From: Thermodesulfobacteriota bacterium
GTDB lineage: Bacteria; Desulfobacterota_D; UBA1144; Nemesobacterales; Nemesobacteraceae
DNA length: 64,000 bases
Reading direction: 5' to 3'
Assembly (NCBI GenBank): GCA_965202785.1
Contig: OZ241855.1
Location: 576,001 to 640,000, forward strand
Under the pieces are notes generated by a model. That model was not told where the DNA came from. It saw nothing but the letters and a program-made list of their open reading frames with translations, and searched no databases. This document shows, piece after piece, positions 32,773 through 50,310 of the stretch. A program made the position numbers and the translations under genes. Every line of letters begins with the position of its first letter. The stretch's first letter is position 1.

Positions 32773-32814
32773 CGTTAAACTTATAGTATATCGGAACTTG
32801 GGGAACGCGAAAAA

Positions 32815-33432
32815 TTGACTGAGACTATCAAAGAAACCGATCCGCTCGTATTTGATAAGCTATCCGAATGCCTTACGGGCGGAGGGGTGATCGTATACCC
32901 GACCGAAACTCTCTACGGAATCGGCTGTCTTGCGTTTGACCGGGAGGCCTGCCGGAGAATAGTAAGGATAAAACAAAGATCCGGAGGCAAGGGACTTATA
33001 GTCCTCGTGAGTGACAAGGAAATGCTTGACCGCCACTTCCATGTTCCCGGCGACCTGCTTGAGAGATACTCCCGAAGCCAAAAACCCCTTACGCTCATAC
33101 TGCGCCCGAAGTCCGTTTTTCCACAAGAGGTGTCAGGAGAAAGGGAATCGGTCGCGGCAAGAATCTCCACTTCTCCCTTCGCAAAAGAGATCCTTCGCCG
33201 CGTGGGAGAGCCCATAACCTCTACGAGCGCGAACATAAGCGGCAGGGGGAACTCAAACCGGTTTGCTGATATCCGCAGGGATTTTCCAAGCGGAATTGAT
33301 GTTATCGTTGATTCTGGTAATCTTCCACCCTCAATGGGTTCAGCGATAGTGAACCTGACGACCACGTCACCCGAAATTATCAGAGAGGGAGATCTTTCCG
33401 TAACCGAAATAGAGAGGATTCTTCATGGCTGA
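32815..33432 (+). CDS. tsaC: Threonylcarbamoyl-AMP synthase (YrdC/Sua5)
   Basis: YPTETLYGIG, K.R, TSTSANISG. Confidence 0.9.
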   Translation: MTETIKETDPLVFDKLSECLTGGGVIVYPTETLYGIGCLAFDREACRRIVRIKQRSGGKGLIVLVSDKEMLDRHFHVPGDLLERYSRSQKPLTLILRPKSVFPQEVSGERESVAARISTSPFAKEILRRVGEPITSTSANISGRGNSNRFADIRRDFPSGIDVIVDSGNLPPSMGSAIVNLTTTSPEIIREGDLSVTEIERILHG

Positions 33433-34636: not shown

Positions 34637-34642
34637 GCAGAT

Positions 34643-34688
34643 AAAAAAAAGAGGAGGGATAACCGTTAAGGTCTCCCTCCTCTTCTTT
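34643..34688. terminator. Bidirectional intrinsic terminator
   Basis: Stem AAGAGGAGGGA / TCCCTCCTCTT flanked by A and T tracts, between convergent genes. Confidence 0.8.
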
Positions 34689-34736
34689 ATTACTCATCAA
34701 GAACTCAGTGTCTTCTCAGACACCGGCTCTTCGCCA

Positions 34737-35708
34737 TTATCCCTGGCTATACTGCGGCAGCAGGAACCTGTGACGCATCGTGTACTCAAACGGCGTAGAG
34801 TATACTATATGACCCATGTCATCAGCTCCTCTCTCTACCGTGTTCGTCCAGATCGTCAACGCCGGCGGTATTATCAGGTTAAACGTGAAGCTTATCAACC
34901 CTACTACCTCCGTTGCCGGTATCTGACCACCCATGTAGTCAAACGGCGTCCCCGACATGAACCACGAACGTACATCCTCCGTAACAGCCGTCCTCACGCT
35001 CTCAGGATTCAGCTGGAACCTGTGTCCCGTCCCGAATCCCGGCGGAAGATCCGACGGCAGATACGTTACTTCATGGATACTGTTCGATACATCAGGCCTC
35101 GTCGTTATCCTGTAGTTCATCCTTCCCCAGTCGGTCTTGCCATAAAACGTAGGCCTGGCCGAAAGCGGACGGTCCGAATAACGTCCGTTCGCTGTGTGCA
35201 GTATGTAGCCTCTGCGCTCCATCAAGTGGTTGAAATAGTTGTTGTTGGTACCATGCTCGAACCCGGCGATGTATGCAGCCTTCTTCGGAAATCCGAATGG
35301 CTCCTTACCGGCAAAAATCGGAGAGTCGTTCGACAGATACATATACGGATAGTATCCCGCTTTGTATATGTGTCCGCTTCCGTCATCCACCGTTGCCGAG
35401 AACGTTACGCCCATCTCCATGTATGGACCTAACATCGTGTTCTTGTGTATTACGTACCAAAACTCTATTACATCATCCTGAACCTCTATCGGTTCCGGAA
35501 CTACCGCTTTCATAGCGTTGATGTCTGCCCTTATCACATAGGCCATCCACCTGCTCTCTGTATACGTAAGCGGTATGATGTCGTAGTCGAACACTGGGTC
35601 CGCTACTCCCTGACTGATTATGTGGATCCTGTCCCTGTCCAATGGTAATGGTGGAACTTCTCCCTCATCCAGCCAAGGATAACTGTACTCATTTGCATGT
35701 AATCCCAT
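34737..35708 (-). CDS. Acetoacetate decarboxylase-fold protein (paralog 2)
   Basis: LGPYMEMGV...YYPYMYL...AGKEPFGFPKK (Schiff-base Lys motif); AAGGAGG RBS. Confidence 0.75.
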   Translation of the reverse strand: MGLHANEYSYPWLDEGEVPPLPLDRDRIHIISQGVADPVFDYDIIPLTYTESRWMAYVIRADINAMKAVVPEPIEVQDDVIEFWYVIHKNTMLGPYMEMGVTFSATVDDGSGHIYKAGYYPYMYLSNDSPIFAGKEPFGFPKKAAYIAGFEHGTNNNYFNHLMERRGYILHTANGRYSDRPLSARPTFYGKTDWGRMNYRITTRPDVSNSIHEVTYLPSDLPPGFGTGHRFQLNPESVRTAVTEDVRSWFMSGTPFDYMGGQIPATEVVGLISFTFNLIIPPALTIWTNTVERGADDMGHIVYSTPFEYTMRHRFLLPQYSQG

Positions 35709-35739
35709 TATGGTTTTACCTCCTTAAATCTTTTTTATC

Positions 35740-36720
35740 TTATGAACCCTGACTGATCGGGAACTGCTGCCTCAATCCATACTTGTATGGCGTGGCATAT
35801 CCACGATAACTTGCCGGCCTCTCATATGTCTCCGTCCATAGCACTACCGCTGGCGGTATTACAAGATCGAACACAAACGAGATCAATCCAGTTACTTCCT
35901 GAATCTTCAGCTCCGCTCCCATGTTGTCAAACGGAGTGGCCTGCATGAACCAGTTTATCGCGTCTCCGCTTGCTGTCCTGGTGTGCTCAGGCTTAATCTT
36001 GAACCTGTGTCCCGTTATCATGCTGTCAAACGGAGGCGGCAACGCCGATGGCAGATATGTCAGCTGCCACTCCGAACTCGATACGTCCGGACGCGTTATG
36101 ACCTTCATGTTGAACTTACCCCAGTCCGTCTTACCGTAGAAATACGGAGGTGTTACCTGCTTGTCGTCGAACTGTCCTGTCGCGCTGTGCATCAGGTAAC
36201 CGTTACGACTCATTGCAAATCCAAAGAAATCCGTGCCCTTCTCTCCACCATGTACCGTACATCTGATGTAGGACATCTTCTTTGGAAATCCAAGTACACG
36301 ACCAGCGTCCACTGGCGCGTCACCCGTAAGATACATATACGGATAGTATCCCGCTCTCCACACGTTCCCGTCAGGATCCGTGTATGATGCCGATACCGTT
36401 ACGCCAAACTCAAGATATGGACCTAACATCGTGTTCTTGTGATCCACATACCAAAACTCTACCAGGTCCGCATTCTCGCCATCCCATACCTGCAACGGGG
36501 GATTCGGGCACAGACGACTCCGAGTTGCCTCGTCGCACCTTACTACAAATGCTGACCACCTGCTGTCCGTGTATGTCAGCGGCAGCACGTCTATGTCCCA
36601 CAGCGGATCCGACGGATTCGCTATGATCCATGACTTGATATCCCGCTCTATCGGAGGGGGCGGGACCTCTTTCGTCAACTCCCAGTACTTCGTTGGGACG
36701 TTTAAATGACTATGGCTCAT
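35740..36720 (-). CDS. Acetoacetate decarboxylase-fold protein (paralog 1)
   Basis: LGPYLEFGV...YYPYMYL...AGRVLGFPKK; AAGGAGG RBS. Confidence 0.75.
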   Translation of the reverse strand: MSHSHLNVPTKYWELTKEVPPPPIERDIKSWIIANPSDPLWDIDVLPLTYTDSRWSAFVVRCDEATRSRLCPNPPLQVWDGENADLVEFWYVDHKNTMLGPYLEFGVTVSASYTDPDGNVWRAGYYPYMYLTGDAPVDAGRVLGFPKKMSYIRCTVHGGEKGTDFFGFAMSRNGYLMHSATGQFDDKQVTPPYFYGKTDWGKFNMKVITRPDVSSSEWQLTYLPSALPPPFDSMITGHRFKIKPEHTRTASGDAINWFMQATPFDNMGAELKIQEVTGLISFVFDLVIPPAVVLWTETYERPASYRGYATPYKYGLRQQFPISQGS

Positions 36721-37263
36721 ATTCTAAGCCTCCTTACTGTAGATTTGGGCCAAAACTTACCACCCATTCCATACCTCTTTAACACCCTATCTTCCCCTGT
36801 TGATAGAATGTTGGTAGCTCTGTTGGATGCGAATAGACGCAACCTCACCCGATTTACATTCAATCAAATCTTACACCCTTTTGTCAAGCACTTTTTTGCG
36901 ATCTTGGCAAACTTTTTTCCGGTTCCGGGGTACCGAAGAAAATCTACCCGCTTAACCGCCTAAAAATGCCGATTTGGGTGTGAAAAAAAGAGGGGATTTT
37001 TCATCCAAAACGCGATCACGGCTTATACCGAAATTGGGCAAAAAAAAGCCGCCGAAGCCACTTAATCCCGTTAGGGAAAAAACAGCCACGGCGGCAACCG
37101 GAAGGTGGAACATTTGATATAGTACTCTCTATTTACCAGTAATGTCAATAAAGTTTTTACGGCAATTGCAAAGTTCCTTTGCCACGATGCGCTAAAACGG
37201 CTATACTGCCTTCCCGAAAAACTTTCTCGCTACAATGAGGATTGGCACAGGGAGGACGCCAAA

Positions 37264-38406
37264 TTGCCTATAGATTTCGAATTCACGGACGAGCAGCGCA
37301 TGTTCCGGGAAATGATAGTGGATTTCGCCCAGAACGAGATAGAACCGCTGGTTGAAGAAGCGGAAGCCACCCAGACCTTCCCCAAGCAGCTGTTTCCCAT
37401 GCTCGGGGAAATCGGACTGCTCGGAATCTCCTTTCCGGAAGAATACGGAGGGGTCGCTCAGGACAAGATAATGGACTGCATATTCTCCGAGGAGATGGGG
37501 AGAGTTAACGCCGGCATAGCCATGTGCATTAACGCCCACACAAGCCTTTCCATGTTCCCCATATACAAATTCGGCTCCGAGGAACAGAAGCAGAAATATC
37601 TCGTCCCCGGGATACAGGGCGAACTAATAGGCTCCCTGGGAATCACCGAACCTAATGCCGGTTCCGACGCGCGAAGCATAAGAACCCAGGCGGAGAAAAA
37701 GGGAGACAGCTACGTGCTTAACGGTACGAAAACCTGGATAACAAACGGCACCATGTGCGACTACGCAGTTGTGGCCGCCTACACCGACAAGACGAAAAAG
37801 GGTCACGGAATAAGCATATTCATAGTGGACAAGGGCACACCGGGATTTTCCGTAAGCGGAAAGATGCACAAGCTAGGGCATCGCTCCGCGGACACGTCGG
37901 AACTTATATTCGAGGGCTGCGAGGTTCCCGAAGAAAGCTTGCTCGTGGGAGAAGGAGGTTTTGCGGGAGCGATGGAGACCCTTCTCGGAGCACGCATAAC
38001 CCACGCCGCAAAAAGCGTCGGAATAGCCCAGGCCGCCTTTGAGTACGCCCTTCAGTATTCAAAGGAAAGAGAGGCGTTCGGAAGACCCATATCCAAGTTT
38101 CAGGCCATAAGTTTCAAGCTCGCCGACATGGCGGTCAAAATAGAGACCGCGAGACTCCTGGTTTACAAGGCCGCATGGCTCTACAGCAACGGGAAAAGGT
38201 GTCTTAAAGAGGCTTCCATGGCCAAGCTCTACTCGGCCGAGATAGTGCAGTGGGTGGCCACAGAGGCCCTGCAGGTACTCGGGGGCTACGGTTACAGCGT
38301 CGAGTATAACGCGGAGAGATACTACCGCGACGCCAGACTAGCTTCCATAACCGAAGGCACTTCGGAGATACAGCGTATCGTTATTTCGCGCGAACTTGGG
38401 ATTTAG
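37264..38406 (+). CDS. Acyl-CoA dehydrogenase
   Basis: ITEPNAGSD, NGTKTWITN, REAFGRPI, QVLGGYGY, ITEGTSEIQR. Confidence 0.95.
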   Translation: MPIDFEFTDEQRMFREMIVDFAQNEIEPLVEEAEATQTFPKQLFPMLGEIGLLGISFPEEYGGVAQDKIMDCIFSEEMGRVNAGIAMCINAHTSLSMFPIYKFGSEEQKQKYLVPGIQGELIGSLGITEPNAGSDARSIRTQAEKKGDSYVLNGTKTWITNGTMCDYAVVAAYTDKTKKGHGISIFIVDKGTPGFSVSGKMHKLGHRSADTSELIFEGCEVPEESLLVGEGGFAGAMETLLGARITHAAKSVGIAQAAFEYALQYSKEREAFGRPISKFQAISFKLADMAVKIETARLLVYKAAWLYSNGKRCLKEASMAKLYSAEIVQWVATEALQVLGGYGYSVEYNAERYYRDARLASITEGTSEIQRIVISRELGI

Positions 38407-38488
38407 TTTGGCAAAAGGGTTAGGTATGTAGTAATATGATACGGATTTTGAACATCAAAGAGCACTAAGTTAAGGAGGAAGCATTACA

Positions 38489-39700
38489 ATGTCTAAGAAC
38501 CTTCCGGGCATACAGGAGACCCGAGAACTTCTGAAGAAGAAAAAAGTGGTTATCGCCGGGGTGGGCGAAACCGAACAGGGAAAAATCCCGGATAAAAGCT
38601 CCTTTCACTTCCTAAGCGAAGCTTCCAAGCTCGCGATTGAGGACGCGGGAATTAAAAAAGACGACGTGGACGGCCTGGTAACGGCCTTCTCCCTCGTGGA
38701 ACACACCTTCATGCACTGCACCACATTTGCCGACTACTTCGGCATGAACCCGAGATTTTTCTCCTCGGTCGCGGTGGGTGGAGCCACGGCGGTGTGGATG
38801 GTGGCGGAAGCCGCCATGGCAATAGCCTCGGGGCAGGCTGAAGTGGTACTTTGCGTAAGGGGGGACAACACCCTCTCGGGAATATCCTCTTCGGGGATGC
38901 TCGCCCTTATAAGGGAGATGTGCCACGCGGAGTTTGAGTTCCCCTACGGACTTACGACTCCCGGGGGATACGCCCTTGCGGCGCAGAGATACCTCCATGA
39001 CTGGGACAGCCGGAGAGAACATCTCGCCGCGGTTGCGGTAACCATGAGAAAGCACGCCGCGGACAAGGAAAACGCCATGAACAAGGATCCCCTCTCAATA
39101 GAGGACGTCCTTAATTCAAGGGTCATAGCGGAGCCTCTTACCAAGTATGACTGCTCGATCATCTCCGATGGGGGAGCGGCTTTCATAGTGACTACGGAGG
39201 ACAAGGCGAAGGAGCTCGGTATAGAGAACGACCTTGCCTACCTCTGGGGAATGGGACAGGGATACTCCCACCAGTACCTCACCACTCTTGAGAACCTTGA
39301 CCAGATATACAACGCTGTCGAGCGATCGGGGGAGAAGGCGTTCACCACGGCGGGGATAGAGCCAAGGGACGTTGACATAGCGTTTCTTTATGACTGCTTC
39401 ACCATAACCGTTCTGCTTGAACTTGAGGGGCTGGGTTTTGTTCCCAAGGGAGAGGGGGGAGCGTTTGCTCTTGAGGGAAGGATGGAGATAGGGAAGGACC
39501 TTCCGGTGAACACCCACGGGGGACTGCTCTCCCAGGCTCACCTGGGGGCCATGCATCATGTTGTGGAGGCCACTCTGCAGCTCAGGGGGGACGCGGGATG
39601 TCGGCAGGTTGAGGACCCCGAGGTGGCGGTTGTGCATGGAAACGGAGGGATAGTGTCGGCTCACAGCACGGTGGTTCTTGGGAACCAGCCGATTAATTAA
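38489..39700 (+). CDS. Thiolase-superfamily protein (SCP2/Ltp2-like), lacking the nucleophilic Cys
   Basis: IAGVGET, VAVGGAT, SDGGAA, YDCFT, VNTHGGLLSQAH. Confidence 0.88.
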   Translation: MSKNLPGIQETRELLKKKKVVIAGVGETEQGKIPDKSSFHFLSEASKLAIEDAGIKKDDVDGLVTAFSLVEHTFMHCTTFADYFGMNPRFFSSVAVGGATAVWMVAEAAMAIASGQAEVVLCVRGDNTLSGISSSGMLALIREMCHAEFEFPYGLTTPGGYALAAQRYLHDWDSRREHLAAVAVTMRKHAADKENAMNKDPLSIEDVLNSRVIAEPLTKYDCSIISDGGAAFIVTTEDKAKELGIENDLAYLWGMGQGYSHQYLTTLENLDQIYNAVERSGEKAFTTAGIEPRDVDIAFLYDCFTITVLLELEGLGFVPKGEGGAFALEGRMEIGKDLPVNTHGGLLSQAHLGAMHHVVEATLQLRGDAGCRQVEDPEVAVVHGNGGIVSAHSTVVLGNQPIN

Positions 39701-39722
39701 CACAAACAAGGAGACAGAGAAG

Positions 39723-40148
39723 ATGTCAGAAGAGAAAAAAGCGTATAACAAGCCTTTGCCTGAGTTCCGGCCCGAGACGAAGCCGTTTTGGGAAGCTGCC
39801 AGGGAGCACAAGCTGGTTATCCCTAGATCAAGGGAGACGGGGGAGTTTTTCTTTTACCCGAGGGCTCTTTCCCCTGGAGGGGACATGAGTGAGGACATAG
39901 AGTGGGTTGAGAGCGAGGGACGGGGGAAGGTGTGGACTTTTTCCATACACCACATGGGACCATCGAAAGCCTACAAGGGTGAGCCTCCTTATGTAGTGGC
40001 CCTTATCGAGATGGAAGAGGGAGTGAAGATGATGTCAAACGTCATTGACGTTGACCCAGGTGAAGTGACCATCGGCATGGAAGTGCAGGTCTGCTTCGAT
40101 GACGTTACAGATGAGGTCACCCTCCCCAAATTCAAACCTGCCGGTTAA
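39723..40148 (+). CDS. DUF35 OB-fold protein (ChsH2 C-terminal-like) with Zn ligands absent
   Basis: PLP...PFWEAA, YPR, WVESEGRGKVWTFS, PYVVALIEMEEG, LPKFKP. Confidence 0.88.
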   Translation: MSEEKKAYNKPLPEFRPETKPFWEAAREHKLVIPRSRETGEFFFYPRALSPGGDMSEDIEWVESEGRGKVWTFSIHHMGPSKAYKGEPPYVVALIEMEEGVKMMSNVIDVDPGEVTIGMEVQVCFDDVTDEVTLPKFKPAG

Positions 40149-40163
40149 GAAAGGAGAACGAAA

Positions 40164-40616
40164 ATGCCAAGAATTTTTTACGAGGACCTAAACGAGGGAG
40201 ACGAGCACAAAAGCTCAGGTAGAACTGTTACTGAAGCTGACGTCGTCAACTTCGCGGGACTTTCCGCAGACTACAACAACATGCACATAGACGAGGAGTT
40301 CGCCAAAAAAACCGTGTTCAAGACAAGAGTAGCTCACGGCATGCTGGTGACTTCCATAGCCACGGGCCTCTGGTTCACCATGCCGAGGCTGGCGACCGTC
40401 GCCTTCATGGGTCTTGAAGACTGGAGATTTTCGGGAGCCGTATTCCCGGGTGACACGATTCACATAACGAGAAAGCTTGTCGAGAAAAGGGAGCACAAGC
40501 GTCCGAACATGGGATTCTTTATCTTCGAAGTAAACGTATTTACCCACAAAGACGCTGAAAAACCCGTCCAGAGGGGAAAATGGGTGATTCTCGTTCAGAG
40601 AAAAGAGGAAGGATAG
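40164..40616 (+). CDS. MaoC-family dehydratase
   Basis: RTVTEADVVNFAGLSADYNNMHID, RVAHG, VFPGDTI. Confidence 0.92.
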   Translation: MPRIFYEDLNEGDEHKSSGRTVTEADVVNFAGLSADYNNMHIDEEFAKKTVFKTRVAHGMLVTSIATGLWFTMPRLATVAFMGLEDWRFSGAVFPGDTIHITRKLVEKREHKRPNMGFFIFEVNVFTHKDAEKPVQRGKWVILVQRKEEG

Positions 40617-40701
40617 AGACTCTGGAATCTGCTGACTTCGGCTGATACACGAAACTCAAACCCACATCGAAGTCAGAGAACCGACGAGGCAAAAAGAGCA
40701 A

Positions 40702-40775
40702 ATCGGGAGAGAAGGGGATTTTGCGATTTCGCCTCTCCTGTGCCGTCGCGTATACGGGTCCGTACGCAACGGTTC
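40702..40775 (-). ncRNA. Group IIC intron-like domains V and VI (3' end)
   Basis: Minus strand reads GAA-CCGTTGC-GTACG-GACC-CGTAT-AC-GCGACGG-CAC-AGGAGAGG...CCTTCTCTCCCGAT: a fully paired DV with AC bulge and a ...CCCGAT terminus. Confidence 0.75.
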
Positions 40776-41030
40776 GAAGAAGGCATTTAATTTTCTTTCA
40801 TTTTTATTTGGACTTTCCACCCATTCAGCCGAGTGTCCGTCCCAGAGCAGTGCTCAAATGTGCCCACTGAACCGCCTATCCAAGCCACCGGGCTCTTGGC
40901 TTGGCGACAGCTTTGCGCATCTCACGAGCGTCGACAAAGATAGCTTGGTTATAAAAAACACCCTTGATCGGTCAGTTTTTTCCGAGTCCCGGGAGACACG
41001 GATATTTGCGAAAGAATTTTCTTCTCCTGT

Positions 41031-42494
41031 CTAAACGCGTTTTCTCAAGAAAACGGCCGAGAACAAAATAGATGCCATCAAGAATAGGTTGAACAAAGCG
41101 CTTCGAGGCGTATCGGCGGTTGCGGTGATCGCGCATCCCCCATCATCCATCCTCATCGCCTCATCCTCCTTGCAGTATTCGGCACTGTCCAGATAAATTC
41201 CCGAACCGACAATGTAATATTGTGGAGGCGCACCGAGGGCGGCAAACCTACTAGGTGTTATGTCTATCACCTCGATGTAACTTTTCTTGATCGAGAGGCC
41301 AGGAACACTGTTCTTCTCAATATAGTCCTCAATACGGGTACTGGGGTCTTCGGGGTTGGCCCAGTGATATGTGACGAAACCGCCGTTTCCCTCTGCTAAA
41401 TCTGCGAGGTTCCCGCTTCCATCTGTCACTACCCTGCGAAAAGCGTCCCAGACAATTCTTCCATCACACTCAAACGGGTCCGGATCTTCTAATCCGACGC
41501 TCAGACCATGAAGATCAAAATCCAGCCCGTTTATAATCGAGATGCCCTGAACCGGGTCCAGCATGAAACTGTATATGGAACCATCTTTGAAATCCCCGGA
41601 GGCATAACATGATATTGTTTTAAAGCTTTCTGAAATGAATTTATTTTCAAGTTCCTCTCTAGCATCAGGACTAGCAAGACCCGGATTTTCTGTTATTATC
41701 CGGAGCGCCGCATCAGACCGTTGTGCCTTAGATTTCTCAGCGATTTCTTTTACATGCTGTACAAGGAGATCTTCTTTCCTTTGCGGGTCTGCCTCATCAT
41801 TGACCTGCTTGGCGGTAGTACTAAGTCTGAAATCCTCAGTTCCACAGTCAGGAGTGTCTTTGTCGATTACATCATAGTCGTCTCTCGCGTGATGAAAGCC
41901 TATGACGTTCGTCACAACAATATCAGCAACGGGGGTAACCACACCGATTCCACAAGCCACTTTGTTCTCTCCATTATCATTATAATCCACGCACACCGGA
42001 TCAGTATTGCCTGGGAACAATCCCGAATCAAGCAAGGTCTGTATGCTTCCGGTCGTCGTGCCGTTGGCATTTTCAAACCCGTAAGAAGTGATATATTTTC
42101 TGCCGTACAGATCGGGATATCGACTGTGATTTGGTATATACCCTTCGGATGTTATTCCTATGGAGTAAATATCGTTGTGATGGAAGACTCCATCGCCACC
42201 ATCTTCTTCTGTTTCTCTCGTTCGTTTCAAGAATATCGTGAATTCTCTCGACCGCTCCGATTTGTTGAGATCCGGATCTGTTGCAATTTGGTTGATGTGT
42301 TCTGACAGATGAAGAACAAGATTCTTGATACTGTCTCTATTTGCAATATCGGTGATATCCTTCGCATTTATATCGAGTTCTGCACTGTGTGTATAGCCTT
42401 TGTACTGATGAGCGGATGCTTCAATACCGAACGAAAAACCAGAAACCGCCGCTAAAAACAAACTCAAAATTATTCTACGGATTATTAAGCTCAT
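41031..42494 (-). CDS. Secreted Cache-domain protein with a C-terminal GGC-TM sorting-like tail
   Basis: Signal peptide (EASA/H); FKDGSIYSFMLD...GFVTYHWANP...KKSYI...IVGSGIY resembles sCache_2; tail DDGGCAITATADTPRSALFNLFLMASILFSAVFLRKRV. Confidence 0.7.
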   Translation of the reverse strand: MSLIIRRIILSLFLAAVSGFSFGIEASAHQYKGYTHSAELDINAKDITDIANRDSIKNLVLHLSEHINQIATDPDLNKSERSREFTIFLKRTRETEEDGGDGVFHHNDIYSIGITSEGYIPNHSRYPDLYGRKYITSYGFENANGTTTGSIQTLLDSGLFPGNTDPVCVDYNDNGENKVACGIGVVTPVADIVVTNVIGFHHARDDYDVIDKDTPDCGTEDFRLSTTAKQVNDEADPQRKEDLLVQHVKEIAEKSKAQRSDAALRIITENPGLASPDAREELENKFISESFKTISCYASGDFKDGSIYSFMLDPVQGISIINGLDFDLHGLSVGLEDPDPFECDGRIVWDAFRRVVTDGSGNLADLAEGNGGFVTYHWANPEDPSTRIEDYIEKNSVPGLSIKKSYIEVIDITPSRFAALGAPPQYYIVGSGIYLDSAEYCKEDEAMRMDDGGCAITATADTPRSALFNLFLMASILFSAVFLRKRV

Positions 42495-42733
42495 ATCTGA
42501 GAACCTCCCTCAACATATCCTTTTCCTCTTCCAAACCTCAGCAATATGGAATGACCGTTCCTTGCTACGAATATTCTACAGTTTTAAATTTTTTGTCAAA
42601 ACACCTATAAAAATAGGCATCTGCGATGTAATGGTTTTCGGGGTTCAGGTTTCAGGAACCAGAGCGGTATCAGCGTAACACCCCGACACAAGCGACACCA
42701 TACCTCCGGGTTTCCGATCATGCTCGGCACACT

Positions 42734-42768
42734 AAAAAAAGGGGGGACTCGAAAGTCCCCCTTTTTTT
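42734..42768. terminator. Strong intrinsic terminator downstream of the AmiS/UreI gene
   Basis: AAAAAAAGGGGGGAC-TCGAAA-GTCCCCCTTTTTTT. Confidence 0.9.
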
Positions 42769-42789
42769 GTAAACCACCTGTAAACCGGC

Positions 42790-42960
42790 ACTCCCTTGCT
42801 TCAAAGACAAGGAATTATTTGCTCGGCGACTGCTACTTGAAGCTGAAGTCGCCTCGCAAACTTCCGTTAAGTTTCGGACTGCCTAGCCGAAACAAAACTG
42901 ACTCTTAAAAGTCCCGTGCTTCCCGTTCATCCCGACACCGGGATTTTTCAGAAAAGCACG
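42790..42960 (-). other. Multi-hairpin structured 3' UTR or candidate ncRNA
   Basis: Consecutive inverted repeats CCTTG/CAAGG, GGCGACT/AGTCGCC, GTTTCGG/CCGAAAC, CGTGCTT/AAGCACG with nested ATCCCG/CGGGAT. Confidence 0.4.
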
Positions 42961-42973
42961 ACAGTATCAAACC

Positions 42974-43498
42974 TTAGCCTGGTACTCCACCGAGAGGATT
43001 CCACTTCTCTGTAAGCAGAAGCATTCCCGGTATCAACAGAGTCACTATCGACTCTATTATGAACAGATAGGCTATCGGCTTGCCAAGATCCTGTCCCTGC
43101 GAGAACGCGAGGAAGCAAAGAAGTACCAGCAAAGCCCATGCCCAGCAGAAGTACGCAAAGTACGCAAGCCCAAGTGCCTGGAAATGAGCCCCGTACCATA
43201 TAAACACCACCGTTGCGAAAAGACAGTACACTCCAAGCCCTTTCGCGTCATGTCCGTGTACGAATACCGCGTAGACTATCAGGTATATCAATGCAAATAC
43301 CGATACTAGCGCGGTAGCCGCCGTAAGACCCAGGGTGTGCAGCTTCCAAGCGGCAATCGCTATGAGAACGCCGACTCCAAGATTGAGCACGCCCACTTCC
43401 TTCGCTCCGGTTTTACCCAAAAGGGTCATTCCGTTCGCGAAGAACACAAACCCTACGAGCAGCAAAACGTAACCTAACAAAGCTTCTATTGGAACCAT
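42974..43498 (-). CDS. AmiS/UreI family amide/urea channel
   Basis: LLLVGFVFFANG, KEVGVLNL.VG, FALIYL, KGLGVYCLF, WAWA.L, TLLIPG; about 6 TM segments. Confidence 0.85.
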   Translation of the reverse strand: MVPIEALLGYVLLLVGFVFFANGMTLLGKTGAKEVGVLNLGVGVLIAIAAWKLHTLGLTAATALVSVFALIYLIVYAVFVHGHDAKGLGVYCLFATVVFIWYGAHFQALGLAYFAYFCWAWALLVLLCFLAFSQGQDLGKPIAYLFIIESIVTLLIPGMLLLTEKWNPLGGVPG

Positions 43499-43630
43499 AC
43501 TAACCATACCTCCTGTATGAGATCATAACCGTTCCTGGTCCCAAGACAGGGACCGCTAATTATGCTTTTATCACAGGAGCGTATTCAATGTCAAGCGTAA
43601 ATTACAACCGCAACTCGGGGCAAAACGACA

Positions 43631-44128
43631 TTACCGGGAAGGAATAAAATCCAAAGCGACCGAGTTTATGCAGTATCGAAGCCCCGTTGGAGGAGGACCA
43701 TCTTTGAAAACATGTCCCAGGTGTTCTCCGCATTTACTTGATACTACCTCATAGCGCCTGAGTCCGAAGGAATTGTCGGGGACTATCCTCACGGCGTCCT
43801 CGCTTACGGGCCTCCAGAAACTCGGCCATCCGGTTTTTGAATCGTATTTATGCTCGGAGGAAAAAACGGGCTGTCCGCAGCCGGCGGTCACGTATACCCC
43901 TTTTTCCTTGTTGTAAAGCAGTTCCCCCGAGAAGGGAGCTTCCGTGCCTTTTTTCCAGAGCACTTTGTACTCAAGGGGCGAAAGCTTCTTTTTCCACTGC
44001 TCCGTGGTAAGTCCCATTATCCCCTCGGGCGGCCTCTTCTCAGCCTGCTCGCCTCCCGCGGGCGAAAACGGCGAAAAAACAAGGACCGAAACCGCAAGGA
44101 TAATCAAGAATATTCCGCGCACAATCAT
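43631..44128 (-). CDS. msrB: Peptide-methionine (R)-S-oxide reductase with signal peptide
   Basis: GTEAPF, KYDSKTGWPSF, HLGHVF.DGP, RYCINS. Confidence 0.95.
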   Translation of the reverse strand: MIVRGIFLIILAVSVLVFSPFSPAGGEQAEKRPPEGIMGLTTEQWKKKLSPLEYKVLWKKGTEAPFSGELLYNKEKGVYVTAGCGQPVFSSEHKYDSKTGWPSFWRPVSEDAVRIVPDNSFGLRRYEVVSSKCGEHLGHVFKDGPPPTGLRYCINSVALDFIPSR

Positions 44129-44241
44129 GAAGATGACCTCTTACTTCTGAATATAAACATCCGCGGTGTTCATGTAAAGTGTCTTAAAATCAGGTATCTA
44201 AAAACAAAAACCCTGCGCGAAGCGCGGTGGAGGTAACAAGC

Positions 44242-45636
44242 ATGCCGAAAACACTTGAGGTTCTCGGAGTCTACGACGAAAAACTCATAAGAAAAATTCC
44301 CGTGACCAGCAAAAAGGAGATGCAGAAAGCGCTTTCCGAGGCAAGGGCTCTTGCCGATAGGCCTTCAGAGAGAATTCCCGTTCCGCAAAGAATAGAGATC
44401 CTCGAGCGAACCAGGGCGTTTGTAGAGAGAAACTACGACCGTATCGTAGCGGACGCCGCCGCAGAGGGAGGAAAACCCCTCATTGACACCAGAGCCGAGA
44501 TTACGAGGGCCATAAACGGAATAAAGGTGGCGGCCGAATCCCTCTCAAATCTCGGAGGAGAGGAAATACCCATGGGCTCAAACGCCGCTTCCCTTAACAG
44601 GATGGCATTCACTCTCAGGGAACCTATAGGGGTCGTGGTGGCCATCTCGGCCTTCAATCACCCTTTTAACCTCGCCGTTCACCAAGTGATACCAGCGGTG
44701 GCTGTCGGCTGCCCGGTAATCATAAAACCCGCGCTTAATACCCCCCTTTCCTGCCTTAACCTGCTTGAAGCTCTCTACGAGAGCGGTCTTCCGGAAAAGT
44801 GGGCCCGCCCCGTTATAGTGGACGATACGCTCGCCGAGGCGCTGGCCACCGACAGAAGGGTCAACTACCTTACATTCATCGGCTCCGCCAAAGTGGGATG
44901 GCATCTGAGGTCAAGACTCGCACCGGGAACGAGATGTGCTCTTGAGCACGGGGGCGCGGCTCCCGTGATAGTGGAGCGCGACGCCGACATAGACGACATG
45001 CTTCCCCTTCTGGCAAAAGGCGGCTTCTACCACGCGGGCCAGGTCTGCGTTTCCGTGCAAAGGGTTTTCGCACAAAGCTCGGTAGTGAAAAAGGTCGCCA
45101 GGGGACTTAAAAAACTCGCCCTTGAGACAAAAGTCGGAGACCCGATGAGCGAAGACACGCAGATAGGCCCCCTTATAAACCCGAAGGAGGTTTCGAGAGT
45201 CCATACCTGGGTAAGAGAGGCTTTGAGAAAAGACGGAAAGCTTCTTTGCGGAGGCAGGAAAATAGGGAAAACCTGCTACGAACCCACGGTAATCCTTAAC
45301 CCGAGCCAGAGTTGCAGGCTATCGCGCGAGGAAATCTTCGGACCCGTTATAGCCGTTTACTCTTATGAGAAAACGGACGATGCCATAGAACTGGCAAACA
45401 GCCTCCCCTACTCGTTTCAGGCGTCGGTATTCACCAAGAACATCGATACCGCCCTTGGGGCCGTGAAGAAGTTAAAGGCGGCCTCAGTGCTCGTAAACGA
45501 TCACACCGCGTTCCGGGTCGACTGGATGCCTTTCCGGGGAGCCGGGCACTCGGGAATAGGAACGGGAGGAATTCCGTACACTATGCGCGAGATGACCCAC
45601 GAAAAACTTATGGTGATAAGGTCATCCGCGGTATAA
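44242..45636 (+). CDS. Aldehyde dehydrogenase family protein
   Basis: AFNHP, FIGS, LEHGG, GQVCVS, EEIFGP. Confidence 0.93.
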   Translation: MPKTLEVLGVYDEKLIRKIPVTSKKEMQKALSEARALADRPSERIPVPQRIEILERTRAFVERNYDRIVADAAAEGGKPLIDTRAEITRAINGIKVAAESLSNLGGEEIPMGSNAASLNRMAFTLREPIGVVVAISAFNHPFNLAVHQVIPAVAVGCPVIIKPALNTPLSCLNLLEALYESGLPEKWARPVIVDDTLAEALATDRRVNYLTFIGSAKVGWHLRSRLAPGTRCALEHGGAAPVIVERDADIDDMLPLLAKGGFYHAGQVCVSVQRVFAQSSVVKKVARGLKKLALETKVGDPMSEDTQIGPLINPKEVSRVHTWVREALRKDGKLLCGGRKIGKTCYEPTVILNPSQSCRLSREEIFGPVIAVYSYEKTDDAIELANSLPYSFQASVFTKNIDTALGAVKKLKAASVLVNDHTAFRVDWMPFRGAGHSGIGTGGIPYTMREMTHEKLMVIRSSAV

Positions 45637-45649
45637 AAAGATCCTAGAA

Positions 45650-45690
45650 AAAAGTTCCTGCCGGGACCGAATCCATCCCGGCAGGAAAAT
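45650..45690. terminator. Inverted repeat/terminator between convergent genes
   Basis: 12-bp stem TTCCTGCCGGGA / TCCCGGCAGGAA. Confidence 0.7.
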
Positions 45691-45710
45691 ATCGTTGCGA
45701 CAAGACAGGC

Positions 45711-48251
45711 TTAGAAGCTGTACTCGTAAGCCACGTAGTAATAGCCACCGTTAAATCCAAAAGGCGCCGAACGCCGCGAGTAGGTGAAAACTCCCGGGGA
45801 ATCGACTATAAGAGACCCGTCGTGATCATATATGGTACCGCCCCTTGACTGGCCGATCTCGTTTTTGTCGGGCTTTACATCAAAAAGGTTGTTTGCCCCG
45901 ACTTTAATCGTGCCGACTTTGCCCAGTCCCAGGCTAAGATTCGCATCGGTAATGTACTTTGCTCCATAAGTCTGGCTTTTCCCGCCGTCAACAACCGTAT
46001 ATTCCCCGTAGCGGTGAACGGCAACCAGCAGGGATGCGAATCCTTTTGAATAAGAACCGGAAAGGGAGAACCGGTCCTTAGGCTGCCATTCTTCTATAAT
46101 CGAACGGTCCTGCGCCGTAAAAAGCTCTTCGGGAAGGCCGAGCGGAAGATTCACGTCCGTGATCTCGGTTTCGTTTACAGTTCCCGCAAAAACGATTTTT
46201 AAAGTAGACCTGTCGGAAAAAGAATGATCATAACTCGCGACCACATCTACCCCCTTGGTCGTAGTGTCCGCGGCGTTCATGAAGAACTGACCCTGCTGAG
46301 CCCCTACGCTATCCCTTACCGACTGGGGAATAGCTTCATTGCCCTCGCTAATCCTTCCGCTCAGGATAATACGATCGTCAATCAGTATGTAGTAGAAATC
46401 GGTCGTAATTGTGAGAGCGGGGAACGGGTTGAACACGAAACCGGCGCTGAAATTCCTTGAAGTTTCTTCTTTAAGCTCCGGAACTCCTATCATCCTTGCC
46501 AGATCACTGTCATTACGGAAAGTCCCCACTTCAAATGCATCAAATTCTCCCGTCTGCTCATTAAGATTGAACTGTGTCGAGACGTTATTGAAATAAATCT
46601 GCTGCATGGAGGGAGCCCTAAACCCGGTGCTCGCAGAACCTCTAAGGGCAAACGAATCGGAAAGCCCGGCTCGGGCGGAGAGTTTTCCGTTAAAGGTGTT
46701 TCCGAAATCGCTGTAGTTCTCGTAGCGCACCGCAGGACTTAAAAGCAGCACCTCCCCCACGTCAAACTCCGCGTCGGCGTAAGCGGAAAAAGCATCCCTC
46801 GCTTCTGAAAGCTCGTTGCTAGGCTTGAAACCAGGAAATACCTGTATTCCGGGAGACCCTCTACCTCCAGGACCATCGTAGTCTTCATATGAATACGCTT
46901 CGCCGGCTTCTATTTCATATTCCTCCCTTCTGTACTCACCTCCCCAGGCAAGATTTCCAAACGTAAAAGGAGCTGTAAAATCAAGATTCACGTTATGCTG
47001 AAGAAGCTTCAACTCTCCCGCGTCGGCGGACAGTGGAATTGAACCGGTGTAATCCGCATCGGAGAGACATTGCTCCGCTTCACCGGTATGACACCTGACC
47101 CATGAAGCGTTATGGGAATCAGTGATTTCAAAGGAAAAAGAGTTTCCACCCACTACATAACTCGCGTCCATTTTGACGCTGTCGGTAAGGTCTCCCTCGA
47201 AACCCAGACCGACTCCGAAATCATTTATACTGGTGTTGATAAGAGGAAGAAAACCGTCCGGGTAATCTGATCCGGCAGGGTTTCTGTCAAGCTGATTCGC
47301 CCTTCTGTAAAAACCTCCGCTCTCGTTTTCCCTTTTTGACAGGTCAAAGAAGCTGTAAATCTCACCGTGCATCAGGTCCACCGGCGCTCTCATGTTGAGC
47401 ACAAAACTTACGTGCGTGGAATCTGCGTCACCCACTCTGAACCTGTCCCTGTCAAAGACACGCTCGGGATCGTTTACACTGTTGGCTGAAAGCGTCCGCG
47501 GACCACTCAGGCTTCCGCACGGGGCCGCATTTCCATCCGCGTCAAGACATTCACTTCCCGGATACTGGATATCTCCCATTACTCCCGCCCTGTTGGAACG
47601 GCTCCTGTCCCTTACTTCAAGGGTCGCATTAACGACGCTTTCGCCGCCGAGCGAAAAACCCTTGTTTATGCTCGCCACAAGAGTTTCTCCGTCTCCTTCG
47701 TAGAGCTGTCCGGCAGTCGCCGTTATCTTGCCGTCGTAGCCGTCCTTAAGGATTATGTTTATAACACCGGATATAGCATCTGAACCGTACTGCGCTGAAG
47801 CACCGTCCCTCAGCACCTCGATTCTCTTTATGGCACTTACGGGAATCGTGTTCATGTCAACGCCCGCGGTACCACGACCCACGGAGGTGTTTACGTGTAT
47901 AAGGGCGCTTTTGTGGCGCCGCTTTCCGTTAACAAGCACCAGAACCTGATCAGGTCCAAGGCCTCGAAGTGTGGCGGGGCGAAGAGAATCGGTTCCGTCG
48001 CTTATGGTCGAGCTCGAGAAATTAAAAGACGGTATGAGCTCCTGAATAATTCTTCCCACCTCGGTCTGGCCCGTCGCGACGATCTCCTCTTCGGTTATGA
48101 CGTCAACGGGAACCGGGGAGTCTGAAACGCTGCGTTCCTCAAAACGGCTTCCGAGCACTACGAGCTTTTCAAGTTCGAAAGCGTTTGTTAAGGGACTTAG
48201 CAAACCTGCAACTAGCAGTGTGGCAAGTCCCGCAATGATTCCTTTTCTCAT
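45711..48251 (-). CDS. TonB-dependent outer-membrane receptor
   Basis: Signal peptide, LVVLGSR, LRGLGPDQVLVLVNGKR, RIEVLRDGASAQYGSDA, C-terminal YSF. Confidence 0.95.
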   Translation of the reverse strand: MRKGIIAGLATLLVAGLLSPLTNAFELEKLVVLGSRFEERSVSDSPVPVDVITEEEIVATGQTEVGRIIQELIPSFNFSSSTISDGTDSLRPATLRGLGPDQVLVLVNGKRRHKSALIHVNTSVGRGTAGVDMNTIPVSAIKRIEVLRDGASAQYGSDAISGVINIILKDGYDGKITATAGQLYEGDGETLVASINKGFSLGGESVVNATLEVRDRSRSNRAGVMGDIQYPGSECLDADGNAAPCGSLSGPRTLSANSVNDPERVFDRDRFRVGDADSTHVSFVLNMRAPVDLMHGEIYSFFDLSKRENESGGFYRRANQLDRNPAGSDYPDGFLPLINTSINDFGVGLGFEGDLTDSVKMDASYVVGGNSFSFEITDSHNASWVRCHTGEAEQCLSDADYTGSIPLSADAGELKLLQHNVNLDFTAPFTFGNLAWGGEYRREEYEIEAGEAYSYEDYDGPGGRGSPGIQVFPGFKPSNELSEARDAFSAYADAEFDVGEVLLLSPAVRYENYSDFGNTFNGKLSARAGLSDSFALRGSASTGFRAPSMQQIYFNNVSTQFNLNEQTGEFDAFEVGTFRNDSDLARMIGVPELKEETSRNFSAGFVFNPFPALTITTDFYYILIDDRIILSGRISEGNEAIPQSVRDSVGAQQGQFFMNAADTTTKGVDVVASYDHSFSDRSTLKIVFAGTVNETEITDVNLPLGLPEELFTAQDRSIIEEWQPKDRFSLSGSYSKGFASLLVAVHRYGEYTVVDGGKSQTYGAKYITDANLSLGLGKVGTIKVGANNLFDVKPDKNEIGQSRGGTIYDHDGSLIVDSPGVFTYSRRSAPFGFNGGYYYVAYEYSF

Positions 48252-48486
48252 CTCCATCCTCCTTGATCTGAAATAATGCGGATTTTCGATTATAACACAG
48301 AACACAGCATAGTTTAAAGCGTAATATCTACAGGAAAACGAAAAATCTAGAAATAATTGCCCTTCCTTACGAGTCCTAAGAAAAACCACCGCGGAGCAAG
48401 TGTAGGCAATCGGGTTCCATCAAGGCACGATGGGTCTTCCCGGCGTTTGAAACATAAGGACATTGCTTTATACTTTCAGCCTGATC

Positions 48487-50283: not shown

Positions 50284-50310
50284 AGGCAAAGCCCCCCTTG
50301 GAAGTGAACT

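What the first reader, a model, noticed from the sequence alone, without database searches (positions are those of the whole stretch)
40702..42732. Group IIC intron ends bracketing a cargo gene instead of a reverse transcriptase
Seen: on the minus strand a strong intrinsic terminator (42768-42734) ends ...GTCCCCCCTTTTTTTA and is followed at once by GTGTGCCGAGCATG (42732-42719). The same strand shows a domain V/VI-like sequence ending ...TCCCGAT at 40702, giving a 2031-bp span. The only long co-oriented ORF inside is the secreted Cache-domain protein (41031-42494), and no RT/maturase motif is present. Established: group IIC introns start with GUGYG, end in AY, insert directly downstream of terminator stem-loops and carry their ORF upstream of DV. 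Inference: this could be a non-autonomous intron-derived vehicle delivering surface-protein genes to terminators using an RT in trans. It could also be a decayed intron later split by a gene insertion. Only about 240 nt precede the ORF, so domains I-III appear truncated or decayed.
Basis: partly seen in the sequence, partly recalled or inferred. Interest (0 to 1): 0.9.

Follow-up and report, generated by a model that had tools for sequence, protein, structure and literature searches.

The report
Gutted group IIC intron holding a gene
A 2-kb insertion just after a transcription terminator really does start and end with the two tips of a group II intron, but everything between them has been replaced by a transposon scrap, an intact surface-protein gene and a scrap of a neighbouring gene, so it is most likely a dead intron relic and not a gene-delivery vehicle.

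Summary
Window 40702-42732 (minus strand) is one insertion that only this genome carries. In 19 of 35 congeners the two flanks lie 45 nt or less apart, and no congener holds the insert. The breakpoints are 42734 and 40702, give or take 3 nt of T-run.

Both ends come from a group IIC intron family that is active in the same genus, in records titled Candidatus Dadabacteria or Thermodesulfobacteriota. Family members sit right after terminators, start with the same 15 nt and end in ...CCCGAT. A covariance model built only from the relatives' domain V-VI ends hits 40702-40779 at 58.9 bits (E 2.7e-14).

The interior is not intron. It holds about 110 nt of the right end of a DDE insertion sequence (IS), a promoter, an intact 487-aa secreted Cache-like gene, and a roughly 90-nt piece of an aldehyde dehydrogenase gene. 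I found no domains I-IV and no reverse transcriptase (RT) in the insert or elsewhere in the genome. The surviving domain V-VI has lost the bulged branch-point A and changed the catalytic triad, and Rfam RF00029 no longer detects it.

Best reading (0.72): a IIC intron inserted once, and its core was later replaced and eroded at the DNA level. The "vehicle using an RT in trans" reading is not supported. Capture by RT template switching is not excluded (about 0.1).

The parts
42734..42768 (-). Intrinsic terminator of the upstream AmiS/UreI-family gene (42974-43507): A-run, 8-bp GC-rich stem, T-run. It is the intron target motif and the end of the 5' exon.
   Evidence: stem 42761-42742. It is conserved in the empty alleles of G011, G023, G021, G022 and G049.
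42716..42732 (-). Remnant of the group IIC intron 5' end. The 15 nt GTGTGCCGAGCATGA are identical to the genus intron family, and up to 17 nt may be intron-derived.
   Evidence: Six congener introns begin with the same 15 nt directly after terminators.
42605..42716 (-). Remnant of the right end of a DDE-transposase insertion sequence. It comprises the last codons of the transposase and the right terminus, with about 168 nt missing between them at 42667.
   Evidence: The full IS is at L048 3745-5415. Pfam DDE_Tnp_1/DUF772 is. The IS is multi-copy in G042, G048 and G050.
42570..42599 (-). Sigma-70-like promoter match (TTGACA, 18-nt spacer, AATATT) in front of the cargo gene.
   Evidence: 10 of 12 positions. 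This is a consensus match only.
41031..42494 (-). Intact 487-aa gene. The protein has an N-terminal signal-peptide-like segment, a Cache-like C-terminal half, and a C-terminal Gly-Gly-Cys, hydrophobic, basic tail. It belongs to a multi-copy family found only in this genus among the genomes searched.
40805..40897 (-). Fragment homologous to codons ~118-148 of the aldehyde dehydrogenase gene that lies downstream of paralogous Cache-like genes elsewhere.
   Evidence: a 60-nt match downstream of paralogues in 8 genomes. (tblastn E 2e-6, 52-60% identity). The Aldedh ORF downstream of the paralogue is shown.
40702..40779 (-). Remnant of intron domains V and VI, ending ...CCCGAT. All 12 DV pairs are intact, with the 2-nt bulge and the GACC loop. 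DVI has lost the bulged A.
   Evidence: (58.9 bits, E 2.7e-14). RF00029 gives no hit.
40699..40701 (-). T residues whose assignment to the insert or the flank is ambiguous. The occupied allele reads T7-A-[insert]-TT-GC. The empty alleles read T7-GC or T8-CGC.
40164..40616 (+). Convergent downstream neighbour, a MaoC-like dehydratase gene. It forms the flank on the 3'-exon side.
   Evidence: In relatives it lies adjacent to the terminator.

Best explanation
A group IIC intron retrohomed once into the T-run behind the AmiS/UreI terminator, in the lineage leading to this species. This step is inferred from the target motif, the family ends and the precise empty sites.

The intron core (domains I-IV and the RT gene, about 1.75 kb) was then lost. 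In its place sits a piece of ordinary chromosomal DNA from another member of the same bacterial group. That piece runs: IS right end, a roughly 118-nt promoter region, a Cache-like surface-protein gene, then the start of an aldehyde dehydrogenase gene.

The most likely route is at the DNA level. Either an IS-associated segment was inserted, or incoming DNA recombined through shared mobile-element sequence. Deletions then removed everything non-functional: most of the IS, about 168 nt inside its right end, and most of the dehydrogenase gene.

The two intron tips survive because they are the outermost pieces of the relic. A deletion running past the 5' tip would damage the AmiS terminator. The DV-DVI hairpins followed by the T-rich 3' exon may now serve as the 3' end of the cargo transcript; this last point is inference only.

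Today the element is an immobile relic. The Cache-like gene is expressed from its own promoter as an ordinary gene, and nothing in this genome could splice or mobilise the element.
For: 1. One insertion with intron-defined borders.
- In G011 the two flanks abut, with a 3-nt overlap.
- In 19 of 35 congeners the flank alignments end at query 915-920 and resume 13-45 nt further on. In 4 more the unaligned gap is 100-264 nt. In 12 the flanks are on different contigs or places. None of the 35 holds the insert.
- Contigs from runs X3, X4 and X6 join 40611/40612 to 42734.

2. The ends are genuine intron ends.
- The G007 element (1866 nt) scores RF02001 at 137.9 bits and RF01998 at 55 bits, and encodes RVT_1 plus GIIM.
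- It and five other copies sit directly after terminators, start with the same 15 nt and end in ...CCCGAT.
- Model R1 hits 40702-40779 at 58.9 bits.
- The DV-DVI structure covaries: 93.8% of cells are paired, against 34-63% when the partners are slid, and 6 pairs show changes on both sides.

3. The interior is not intron.
- No Rfam group II hit appears at E<=10.
- BLAST against the G007 intron matches only the last 76 nt.
- RT proteins match only where the ORF overlaps DV-DVI.

4. The interior is chromosomal DNA with decayed neighbours.
- IS remnant.
- Aldehyde dehydrogenase fragment.

5. No machinery is present. There is no RF00029, GIIM, RVT_1 or RF02001 above cut-off, no DNA match to the intron, and only this one R1 hit in the genome.

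6. The genus shows the same erosion from inside.
- G015 keeps a 145-nt remnant (5' ~67 nt joined to DV-DVI) at the site where G011 has a 630-nt ORF-less intron.
- G046 keeps nt 1-32 joined to nt 1063 onward, and G044 keeps 1-84 joined to 338 onward.

7. The relic is degenerate.
- The triad reads CGU where the family has CGC, its G.U wobble has become G-C, and the bulge is UA where the family has YG.
- The DVI bulged A is C.
- RF00029 scores the G007 end at 39.8 bits but gives nothing for the window.

8. The allele is real and stable. Contigs of X2 and X3 cover both junctions, and contigs of X4 and X6 cover the 5' junction.
Against: - No intermediate was found. There is no copy with an intact intron at this site, no donor locus with IS, this Cache-like gene and the dehydrogenase in a row, and no trace of a second IS or a target-site duplication. 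The order and number of DNA events is therefore inferred, not shown.
- At least four separate deletions or junctions are needed.
- All of this happened on the terminal branch. The closest congener, G049, has an empty site while its flanks are 91-96% identical.
- The DV-DVI relic is only 71% identical to the genus family yet keeps 12 of 12 DV pairs, two of them by changes on both sides. That is too much change, and too well compensated, for neutral decay in place. It points to a divergent intron lineage that I could not find, or to selection on the hairpin.
- The cargo is co-oriented with the intron, which an RNA-level capture would also predict.
Confidence: 0.72

Rival explanations
1. Capture during retrohoming by RT template switching. 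The intron RNA had reverse-spliced into the site and was broken. The RT copied DVI-DV, jumped to a cellular read-through transcript (IS 3' end, Cache-like gene, start of the dehydrogenase gene) and jumped back to the last ~15 nt of the intron 5' end. One event would thus have made a chimeric 'retrogene' bounded by intron tips.
For: - The cargo has the same orientation as the intron.
- The borders of the whole unit are exactly the intron ends, and no intermediate with a full intron is known.
- The inner junctions show 0-3 nt of overlap.
- The two internal gaps could be further jumps: 168 nt in the IS end, and several hundred nt between the gene and dehydrogenase codon ~118.
- Group II intron RTs switch templates readily. 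For PMC3683930 and bioRxiv 10.1101/792986 I saw only the abstracts, in the listing.
Against: - The inner 3' junction lies inside a coding region, with no terminator or other RNA 3' end. Only one terminator-like site exists in 40000-43600, and it is the AmiS one.
- The published end-to-end switching goes to the 3' end of the acceptor (abstract of 10.1101/792986).
- No source copy of the cargo exists in this genome. The nearest paralogue is 45% identical by BLASTP (48% in the alignment).
- No RT is left in the genome.
- The genus shows plain deletional erosion of introns that explains the same end-retention.
Confidence: 0.1
2. Homologous recombination through mobile-element copies. In a donor, the segment lay between two intron copies, or between an IS and an intron. 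It entered a resident intron at this site by recombination in the shared sequences, and the duplicated element sequence was later deleted down to the tips.
For: - Intron and IS copies are numerous in several congeners. G042 has 6 exact intron 5' ends and 9 IS-end matches. G048 has 14 and G050 has 15 IS-end matches.
- The cargo gene has no orthologue in the 35 congeners. It is 49-50% identical to the nearest orthogroup, whose members are 76-82% alike. This points to import.
- In G007 a conserved intron site carries 10.8 kb of foreign genes between a 94-nt 5' piece and a 124-nt 3' piece.
Against: - No donor arrangement was found.
- It still needs the same later deletions as the best explanation, of which it is really a sub-case.
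- The G007 case has an IS directly after its 3' piece and no demonstrable empty site.
Confidence: 0.1
3. One reading: a non-autonomous, intron-derived vehicle that still moves surface-protein genes to terminators using an RT supplied in trans.
For: - ORF-less derivatives of this intron family do exist and have multiplied in congeners that also hold related copies. The roughly 630-nt copies are built from nt 1-532 plus 1774-1866, with at least 5 in G042 and 1 intact plus 1 IS-interrupted in G011.
- The insert's borders are exactly the intron ends.
Against: - Those ORF-less copies keep the whole ribozyme, while this element keeps about 15-17 nt of it.
- The element exists as one copy in one species. 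There are no other DV-DVI or 5'-end copies in the genome, and no second example enclosing a single gene in 36 genomes.
- There is no RT in the genome.
- The branch-point A is lost and the catalytic triad altered.
- The cargo carries IS and pseudogene scraps.
Confidence: 0.03
4. The 5' and 3' pieces are unrelated remnants of two different intron insertions that happen to flank the gene.
For: - The 5' piece is identical to the genus family, while the 3' piece is only 71% identical to it.
- Solo 5' and solo 3' fragments are common in the genus.
Against: - The empty alleles remove both pieces and everything between them as one block whose borders are the two intron ends.
- Two independent insertions would not give a right-hand breakpoint that coincides with the 3' end of the second intron.
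- Fifteen nucleotides are too few to measure divergence of the 5' piece.
Confidence: 0.04

Closest known systems
Bacterial class C (IIC) group II introns that insert after intrinsic terminators (for example B.h.I1; Robart et al. 2007 is cited in PMC3001079 and PMC4424553)
   Same: - The element sits directly behind a terminator stem-loop and T-run.
- It starts with GUGYG and ends in AU.
- DV has a lower stem, a 2-nt bulge, an upper stem and a tetraloop.
- It is homologous to a family in the same genus that carries RT/maturase ORFs.
   Evidence: The IIC targeting rule is stated in PMC4424553 and in the abstract of PMC1702495.
   Different: - Domains I-IV and the RT gene are absent.
- DVI lacks the bulged A, and the triad and bulge differ from the family.
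- The interior is unrelated chromosomal DNA with a functional gene.
Truncated or fragmented bacterial group II introns embedded among other mobile DNA (described in the review PMC4424553)
   Same: It is an inactivated copy, invaded by or associated with an insertion sequence, and lies outside housekeeping genes (passage seen).
   Different: Both extreme tips are kept while the whole core is exchanged for a working, unrelated gene. In the literature searches I ran I saw no description of that architecture.
ORF-less group II introns mobilised or spliced by a related RT in trans
   Same: The genus has them, as roughly 630-nt copies in G042 and G011. The review says bacterial ORF-less introns reside in genomes with related introns.
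   Different: Those copies keep a complete ribozyme and live beside RT-encoding relatives. This element has neither.
[quoted passage not shown]
   Same: It is the idea that a IIC intron could join a gene to a structured target motif.
   Different: Here there is no integron, no attC and no integrase, and the gene lies inside the intron remnant. The 2009 paper itself is not held.
Engineered targetrons carrying cargo genes in domain IV
   Same: A foreign gene sits between intron 5' and 3' parts. I saw only the listing and abstracts of PMC2518211 and PMC3706431.
   Different: Targetrons keep all the catalytic domains and need the RT. They are laboratory constructs.

Membership tests
Group IIC (class C) intron | 5' end GUGYG, conserved with family members | tested here: met
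   Positions 42732-42718 are identical over 15 nt to six congener introns. It is the only exact copy in the genome.
Group IIC (class C) intron | Insertion directly downstream of an intrinsic terminator, with a precise empty site | tested here: met
   The terminator is at 42768-42734. Empty alleles were found in 19 of 35 congeners, with breakpoints within 3 nt of T-run ambiguity.
Group IIC (class C) intron | Domain V hairpin (lower stem, 2-nt 3' bulge, upper stem, tetraloop) followed by DVI and a 3' AY | tested here: met
   The lineage model R1 gives 58.9 bits, E 2.7e-14. All 12 DV pairs are formed and the structure covaries.
Group IIC (class C) intron | Match to the general group II DV-DVI model (Rfam RF00029) | tested here: not met
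   There is no hit at E<=10 even in a 181-nt search. The G007 family member scores 39.8 bits.
Group IIC (class C) intron | Catalytic triad with G.U wobble and a bulged branch-point A in DVI. The roles of these positions are recalled knowledge; no call here supplied them. | tested here: not met
   The family has CGC with G.U and a bulged A 8 nt from the 3' end. The window has CGU with G-C, and C in place of the bulged A, which gives a continuous helix.
Group IIC (class C) intron | Ribozyme domains I-IV | tested here: not met
   No group-II-D1D4 family appears at E<=10 in 40300-43300. BLAST against the G007 intron matches only the last 76 nt.
Group IIC (class C) intron | Intron-encoded RT/maturase | tested here: not met
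   tblastn with three congener RTs finds nothing in the interior. RVT_1 and GIIM are absent from the whole genome, which is 96% complete.
Non-autonomous (ORF-less) intron mobilised in trans | Complete ribozyme, plus a related RT-encoding intron in the same genome | tested here: not met
   The only R1 hit in the genome is this relic.
DDE-transposase insertion sequence (remnant) | Homology to the transposase 3' end and right terminus of a multi-copy IS | tested here: met
   Insert nt 18-129 match IS copies in G011, G023, G041, G042, G048 and G050. The left end and most of the transposase gene are absent.
Cache-domain extracellular protein | Significant match to a Cache Pfam model | tested here: inconclusive
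   dCache_2 scores E 0.35 on the protein, below the cut-off. The protein aligns (E 6e-27) with P0054, which scores dCache_2 at 1.7e-21 and sCache_2 at 1.8e-14. No structure was predicted.

The most novel reading that the evidence does not exclude
The unit was made in one step, when the reverse transcriptase of a retrohoming group IIC intron switched templates onto a cellular mRNA and back. That would have planted an expressed surface-protein gene behind a terminator as a bacterial 'retrogene' bounded by intron tips. If so, group II introns can transduce host genes, much as LINE elements make chimeric retrocopies in eukaryotes.
Probability: 0.1. Interest if true: 0.85.

Novelty: new member of a known kind. 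Interest (0 to 1): 0.4.

Why it matters
- It shows that a reader working from sequence alone can place intron borders to the base, and that the standard Rfam check would have wrongly dismissed them.
- It documents an undescribed, active group IIC intron family in a genus whose related records are titled Candidatus Dadabacteria or Thermodesulfobacteriota. The family includes full-length copies, bursts of roughly 630-nt ORF-less copies, and every stage of decay.
- The relic illustrates how the sites behind terminators, once opened by an intron, become tolerated landing places where foreign genes settle. Here that gene is a fast-evolving surface protein found in no other sampled species of the genus.
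- If the minority RNA-capture reading were right, it would be a new route of gene movement in bacteria. On the best reading it is an instructive but ordinary product of insertion and deletion.

Tried and rejected
- Rfam at gathering threshold on the whole window and at E<=10 on 40300-43300 and 40670-40850 found no group II family. I did not take this as refutation, because the lineage model and the congener introns show homology.
- I tried to find an intact intron with the window-type DV. The DV motif scan of genome contigs gave 12 stretches, all family-type or other lineages. The genus pattern scan returned only the family plus the window. The exact 28-mer scan of metagenome contigs gave 0. 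R1 on 15 further loci found nothing closer.
Everything else was 51% identical or less. The search for related loci in genome contigs and in metagenome contigs confirmed no relative.
- Integron cassette or attC reading: I looked by eye for attC-type core sites at the borders and saw none. This was not tested with a tool and was dropped once the intron homology was clear.
- IS200/IS605-like element inserting 3' of a short motif: considered before and dropped for the same reason.
- The G011 Cache-like gene at the paralogous AmiS'/thiolase' locus was inspected for intron-like ends and has none. The gene family is therefore not generally carried by introns.
- RNA evidence: no RNA holder was listed among the sequencing runs. 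Only contigs were laid, so nothing can be said about expression, splicing or transcript ends.
- NCBIfam gave no family for the cargo protein at E<=1.
- No structure prediction, complex prediction or atlas search was run, because the cargo's fold does not bear on the question.
- Leon and Roy 2009 is not held. Supplementary files were not consulted.
Full report
**What is at the coordinates.**
- On the minus strand, the AmiS/UreI-family gene (42974-43507; Pfam) is followed by an A-run, an 8-bp GC-rich stem and a T-run (stem 42761-42742).
- One base later the sequence reads GTGTGCCGAGCATGA (42732-42718).
- About 2 kb downstream, the same strand ends ...CTCTCCCGAT at 40702.
- The only long co-oriented ORF in between is 41031-42494 (487 aa).

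**The standard check fails, but it is misleading.**
- Rfam finds no group II family in the window at gathering threshold.
- It finds none at E<=10 in 40300-43300 or in a 181-nt slice around the 3' end.
- The genome is 1.64 Mb in one contig and 96% complete.
- It has no RF00029 hit above 13 bits, no GIIM, no RVT_1 and no RF02001 hit above 16 bits.
- Taken alone, these results would suggest that the finding is a chance resemblance.

**Empty sites.**
- I searched five congeners with window 32000-51000. In G011 the left flank ends at window 40702 and the right flank starts at 42734, on adjacent bases with a 3-nt overlap.
- G023, G021 and G022 also resume at exactly 42734.
- Across the genus, 19 of 35 congeners have the two flank alignments 13-45 nt apart. 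Four more have 100-264 unaligned nt. Twelve cannot be judged because the flanks are on different contigs or places. None holds the insert.
- The empty sequence is terminator, T7 (T8 in G049), then GC/CGC.
- The occupied allele reads T7-A-[GTGTG...CCCGAT]-TT-GC.
- Contigs of public runs show the same thing. Related strains about 9% diverged join 40611/40612 to 42734. Contigs of X2 and X3 cover both junctions of the occupied allele, and contigs of X4 and X6 cover its 5' junction. The insertion is thus real and stable, and is not an assembly artefact.

**The ends are intron ends.**
- A 15-nt match led to G007:C9. There a 1866-nt element lies behind a terminator and begins with the same 15 nt.
- It scores RF02001 at 137.9 bits and RF01998 at 55 bits. 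It encodes RVT_1 plus GIIM, with an in-frame TAG, and ends ...TATCCCGAT.
- Its DV-DVI scores 39.8 bits on RF00029, just under the 40-bit cut-off.
- The genus holds full-length copies in G007, G024 and G047. The RT ORFs are 486 aa in G024 and 498 aa in G047.
- It also holds roughly 630-nt ORF-less copies made of nt 1-532 plus 1774-1866: at least five in G042, and one intact plus one interrupted in G011. Many fragments are present too.
- All six copies inspected sit directly behind a terminator and T-run and are followed by T.
- I aligned twelve DV-DVI ends, leaving out this genome, and built a covariance model. In the window it hits 40702-40779 at 58.9 bits (E 2.7e-14, full length); the next hit scores 11.3 bits. 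This is the only hit in the whole genome.
- On the 13-row alignment the DV-DVI structure is supported. 93.8% of cells are paired, against 34-63% when the partners are slid, and six pairs show changes on both sides.
- Records that carry the family's DV motif are titled Candidatus Dadabacteria or Thermodesulfobacteriota. I infer that the genus belongs to that group.

**The interior is not intron.**
- BLAST of the insert against the G007 intron matches only the last 76 nt, at 71%.
- RT proteins match only where the G007 ORF overlaps DV-DVI.
- Insert nt 18-129 (window 42716-42605) are the last codons and the right terminus of a DDE-transposase IS. Complete copies of this IS exist in G011 and G023 (99% alike), and it is multi-copy in G042, G048 and G050.
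- Complete copies have about 168 nt between the two matching pieces. In the window those pieces abut.
- Next come a promoter-like site and a purine-rich stretch ahead of the ATG, and then the ORF.
- Downstream of the stop codon, 40897-40805 is homologous to codons ~118-148 of an aldehyde dehydrogenase. In other genomes that gene lies about 0.4-0.5 kb downstream of paralogous Cache-like genes.
- The 'cargo' is therefore a slice of ordinary chromosome: one live gene and the stumps of its two neighbours.

**The cargo gene.**
- It belongs to a family found in 20 of 24 congeners and in 0 of 16 genomes from other families of the order.
- The nearest orthogroup (G011, G007, G021, G023, G022) is 76-82% identical within itself but only 49-50% identical to this protein.
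- In a database of 5.8 billion proteins, only one protein is close (98%), and all others are 51% identical or less.
- Pfam does not recognise the protein itself. It aligns with 852-aa tandem relatives that score dCache_2 and sCache_2. 'Cache-like' is therefore reasonable but indirect.
- At another locus, G011 has a family member where this genome has 93 unrelated nt. That copy has no intron-like ends. The family comes and goes by other means too.

**State of the relic.**
- DV keeps all 12 pairs, the 2-nt bulge and the GACC loop.
- The triad is CGU where the family has CGC. Its G.U wobble is now G-C. The bulge is UA where the family has YG. The DVI bulged A is C, which makes a continuous helix.
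- That these positions matter for catalysis and branching is recalled knowledge; no call here supplied it.
- Two DV pairs differ from the family on both sides, and overall identity is 71%. The flanks, by contrast, differ from the closest congener by only 4-9%. The relic therefore probably descends from a different intron lineage from the one now common in the genus. I could not find that lineage.
- The 101-nt stretch covering DV, DVI and the T-rich flank folds at -33.5 kcal/mol, z = -3.2. A present role as a transcript 3' end is possible but untested.

**How it most likely arose.**
- Step 1: one retrohoming event behind the terminator. This is inferred, and supported by the target, the ends and the empty sites.
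- Step 2: replacement of the core by imported chromosomal DNA associated with an IS, followed by deletions. This is also inferred.
- The genus supplies direct parallels for erosion from the inside with both tips retained:
  - G015 has a 145-nt remnant at the very site where G011 has a 630-nt ORF-less intron.
  - G046 keeps nt 1-32 joined to nt 1063 onward, and G044 keeps 1-84 joined to 338 onward.
  - A conserved intron site in G007, G011 and G042 shows 94, 296 and 398 nt of 5' end followed by other DNA. In G007 this is 10.8 kb with two STAND-type NTPase genes before a 124-nt 3' piece and an IS.
[quoted passage not shown] It also states that bacterial ORF-less introns live beside related RT-encoding copies (passages).

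**What remains open.**
- I found no intermediate and no donor, so the DNA-level route is the most economical story but is not demonstrated.
- A one-step capture by RT template switching would also give a co-oriented insert bounded by intron tips. I hold it at about 0.1, for three reasons:
  - The inner 3' junction lies inside a coding region and not at an RNA end.
  - No source copy exists in this genome.
  - Plain deletion explains the same pattern elsewhere in the genus.
- The vehicle reading is at about 0.03, because the ribozyme is missing and the unit is single-copy.

**Literature.**
- I found no paper that holds both 'Dadabacteria' and 'group II intron'.
- In the searches, I found no description of natural intron tips enclosing an unrelated functional gene.
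- The nearest ideas are the proposed role of IIC-attC introns in cassette formation, which I saw only as cited in PMC3001079, and engineered targetrons with cargo in domain IV (listing).
- Supplementary files were not consulted.

Noticed in passing
L054 (G042:C1:527741-531272); also G042:C1 23675-24310, 38890-39517 and 525078-525705; L055 (G011:C1:324397-325022): ORF-less copies of about 630 nt from the same IIC family (nt 1-532 joined to 1774-1866), 95-97% alike. There are at least five in G042, two of them about 150 nt apart, and each sits behind a different terminator. This looks like a recent burst of non-autonomous introns.
   Followed up: partly
L095 (G015:C1:766023-766167) compared with L055 (G011): A 145-nt micro-remnant (5' ~67 nt joined to DV-DVI) lies at the orthologous site of the G011 ORF-less intron. 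It is a clean example of internal deletion that keeps both tips.
   Followed up: yes
L094 (G007:C9:93500-106500): A 94-nt intron 5' piece (99% identical to the full G007 copy) behind a terminator and a 124-nt 3' piece (83%) lie 10.8 kb apart. Two large STAND-type NTPase genes (NACHT/AAA_16; 1597 and 1334 aa) lie between them, and a DDE IS follows directly after. The same site carries truncated intron 5' ends in G011 and G042.
   Followed up: partly
L047 5043-5041 (G007 intron RT ORF): The RT ORF of the otherwise complete G007 intron is split by an in-frame TAG into 132-aa and 358-aa parts. The G024 and G047 copies have uninterrupted ORFs of 486 and 498 aa.
   Followed up: no
G000:C1:484142-497855 (L099) compared with L027 (G011) and L101 (G049): Each genome carries a second, 90-98% similar copy of the AmiS/UreI gene and of the thiolase/ChsH2-OB/MaoC block. 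Between them, G011 has a 1.64-kb Cache-like gene where this genome has 93 nt, and G049 has a 6.2-kb insertion about 0.6 kb further along.
   Followed up: partly
window 41031-41150 (C-terminus of the cargo protein) and many congener proteins: The last ~40 residues (Gly-Gly-Cys, a hydrophobic stretch, a basic tail) are conserved at 51-66% identity on dozens of otherwise different proteins of 60-1387 aa in the genus. This looks like a sorting signal. NCBIfam gave no match on the whole cargo protein.
   Followed up: no
window 29448-29520 (-): The second-best hit of the DV-DVI model scores 11.3 bits (E 0.3). I take it as chance.
   Followed up: no
L085 and L092 (records titled uncultured delta proteobacterium and Brocadiaceae): Related DV-DVI ends with compensatory changes occur outside the genus, so the intron lineage is wider than this genus.
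   Followed up: no
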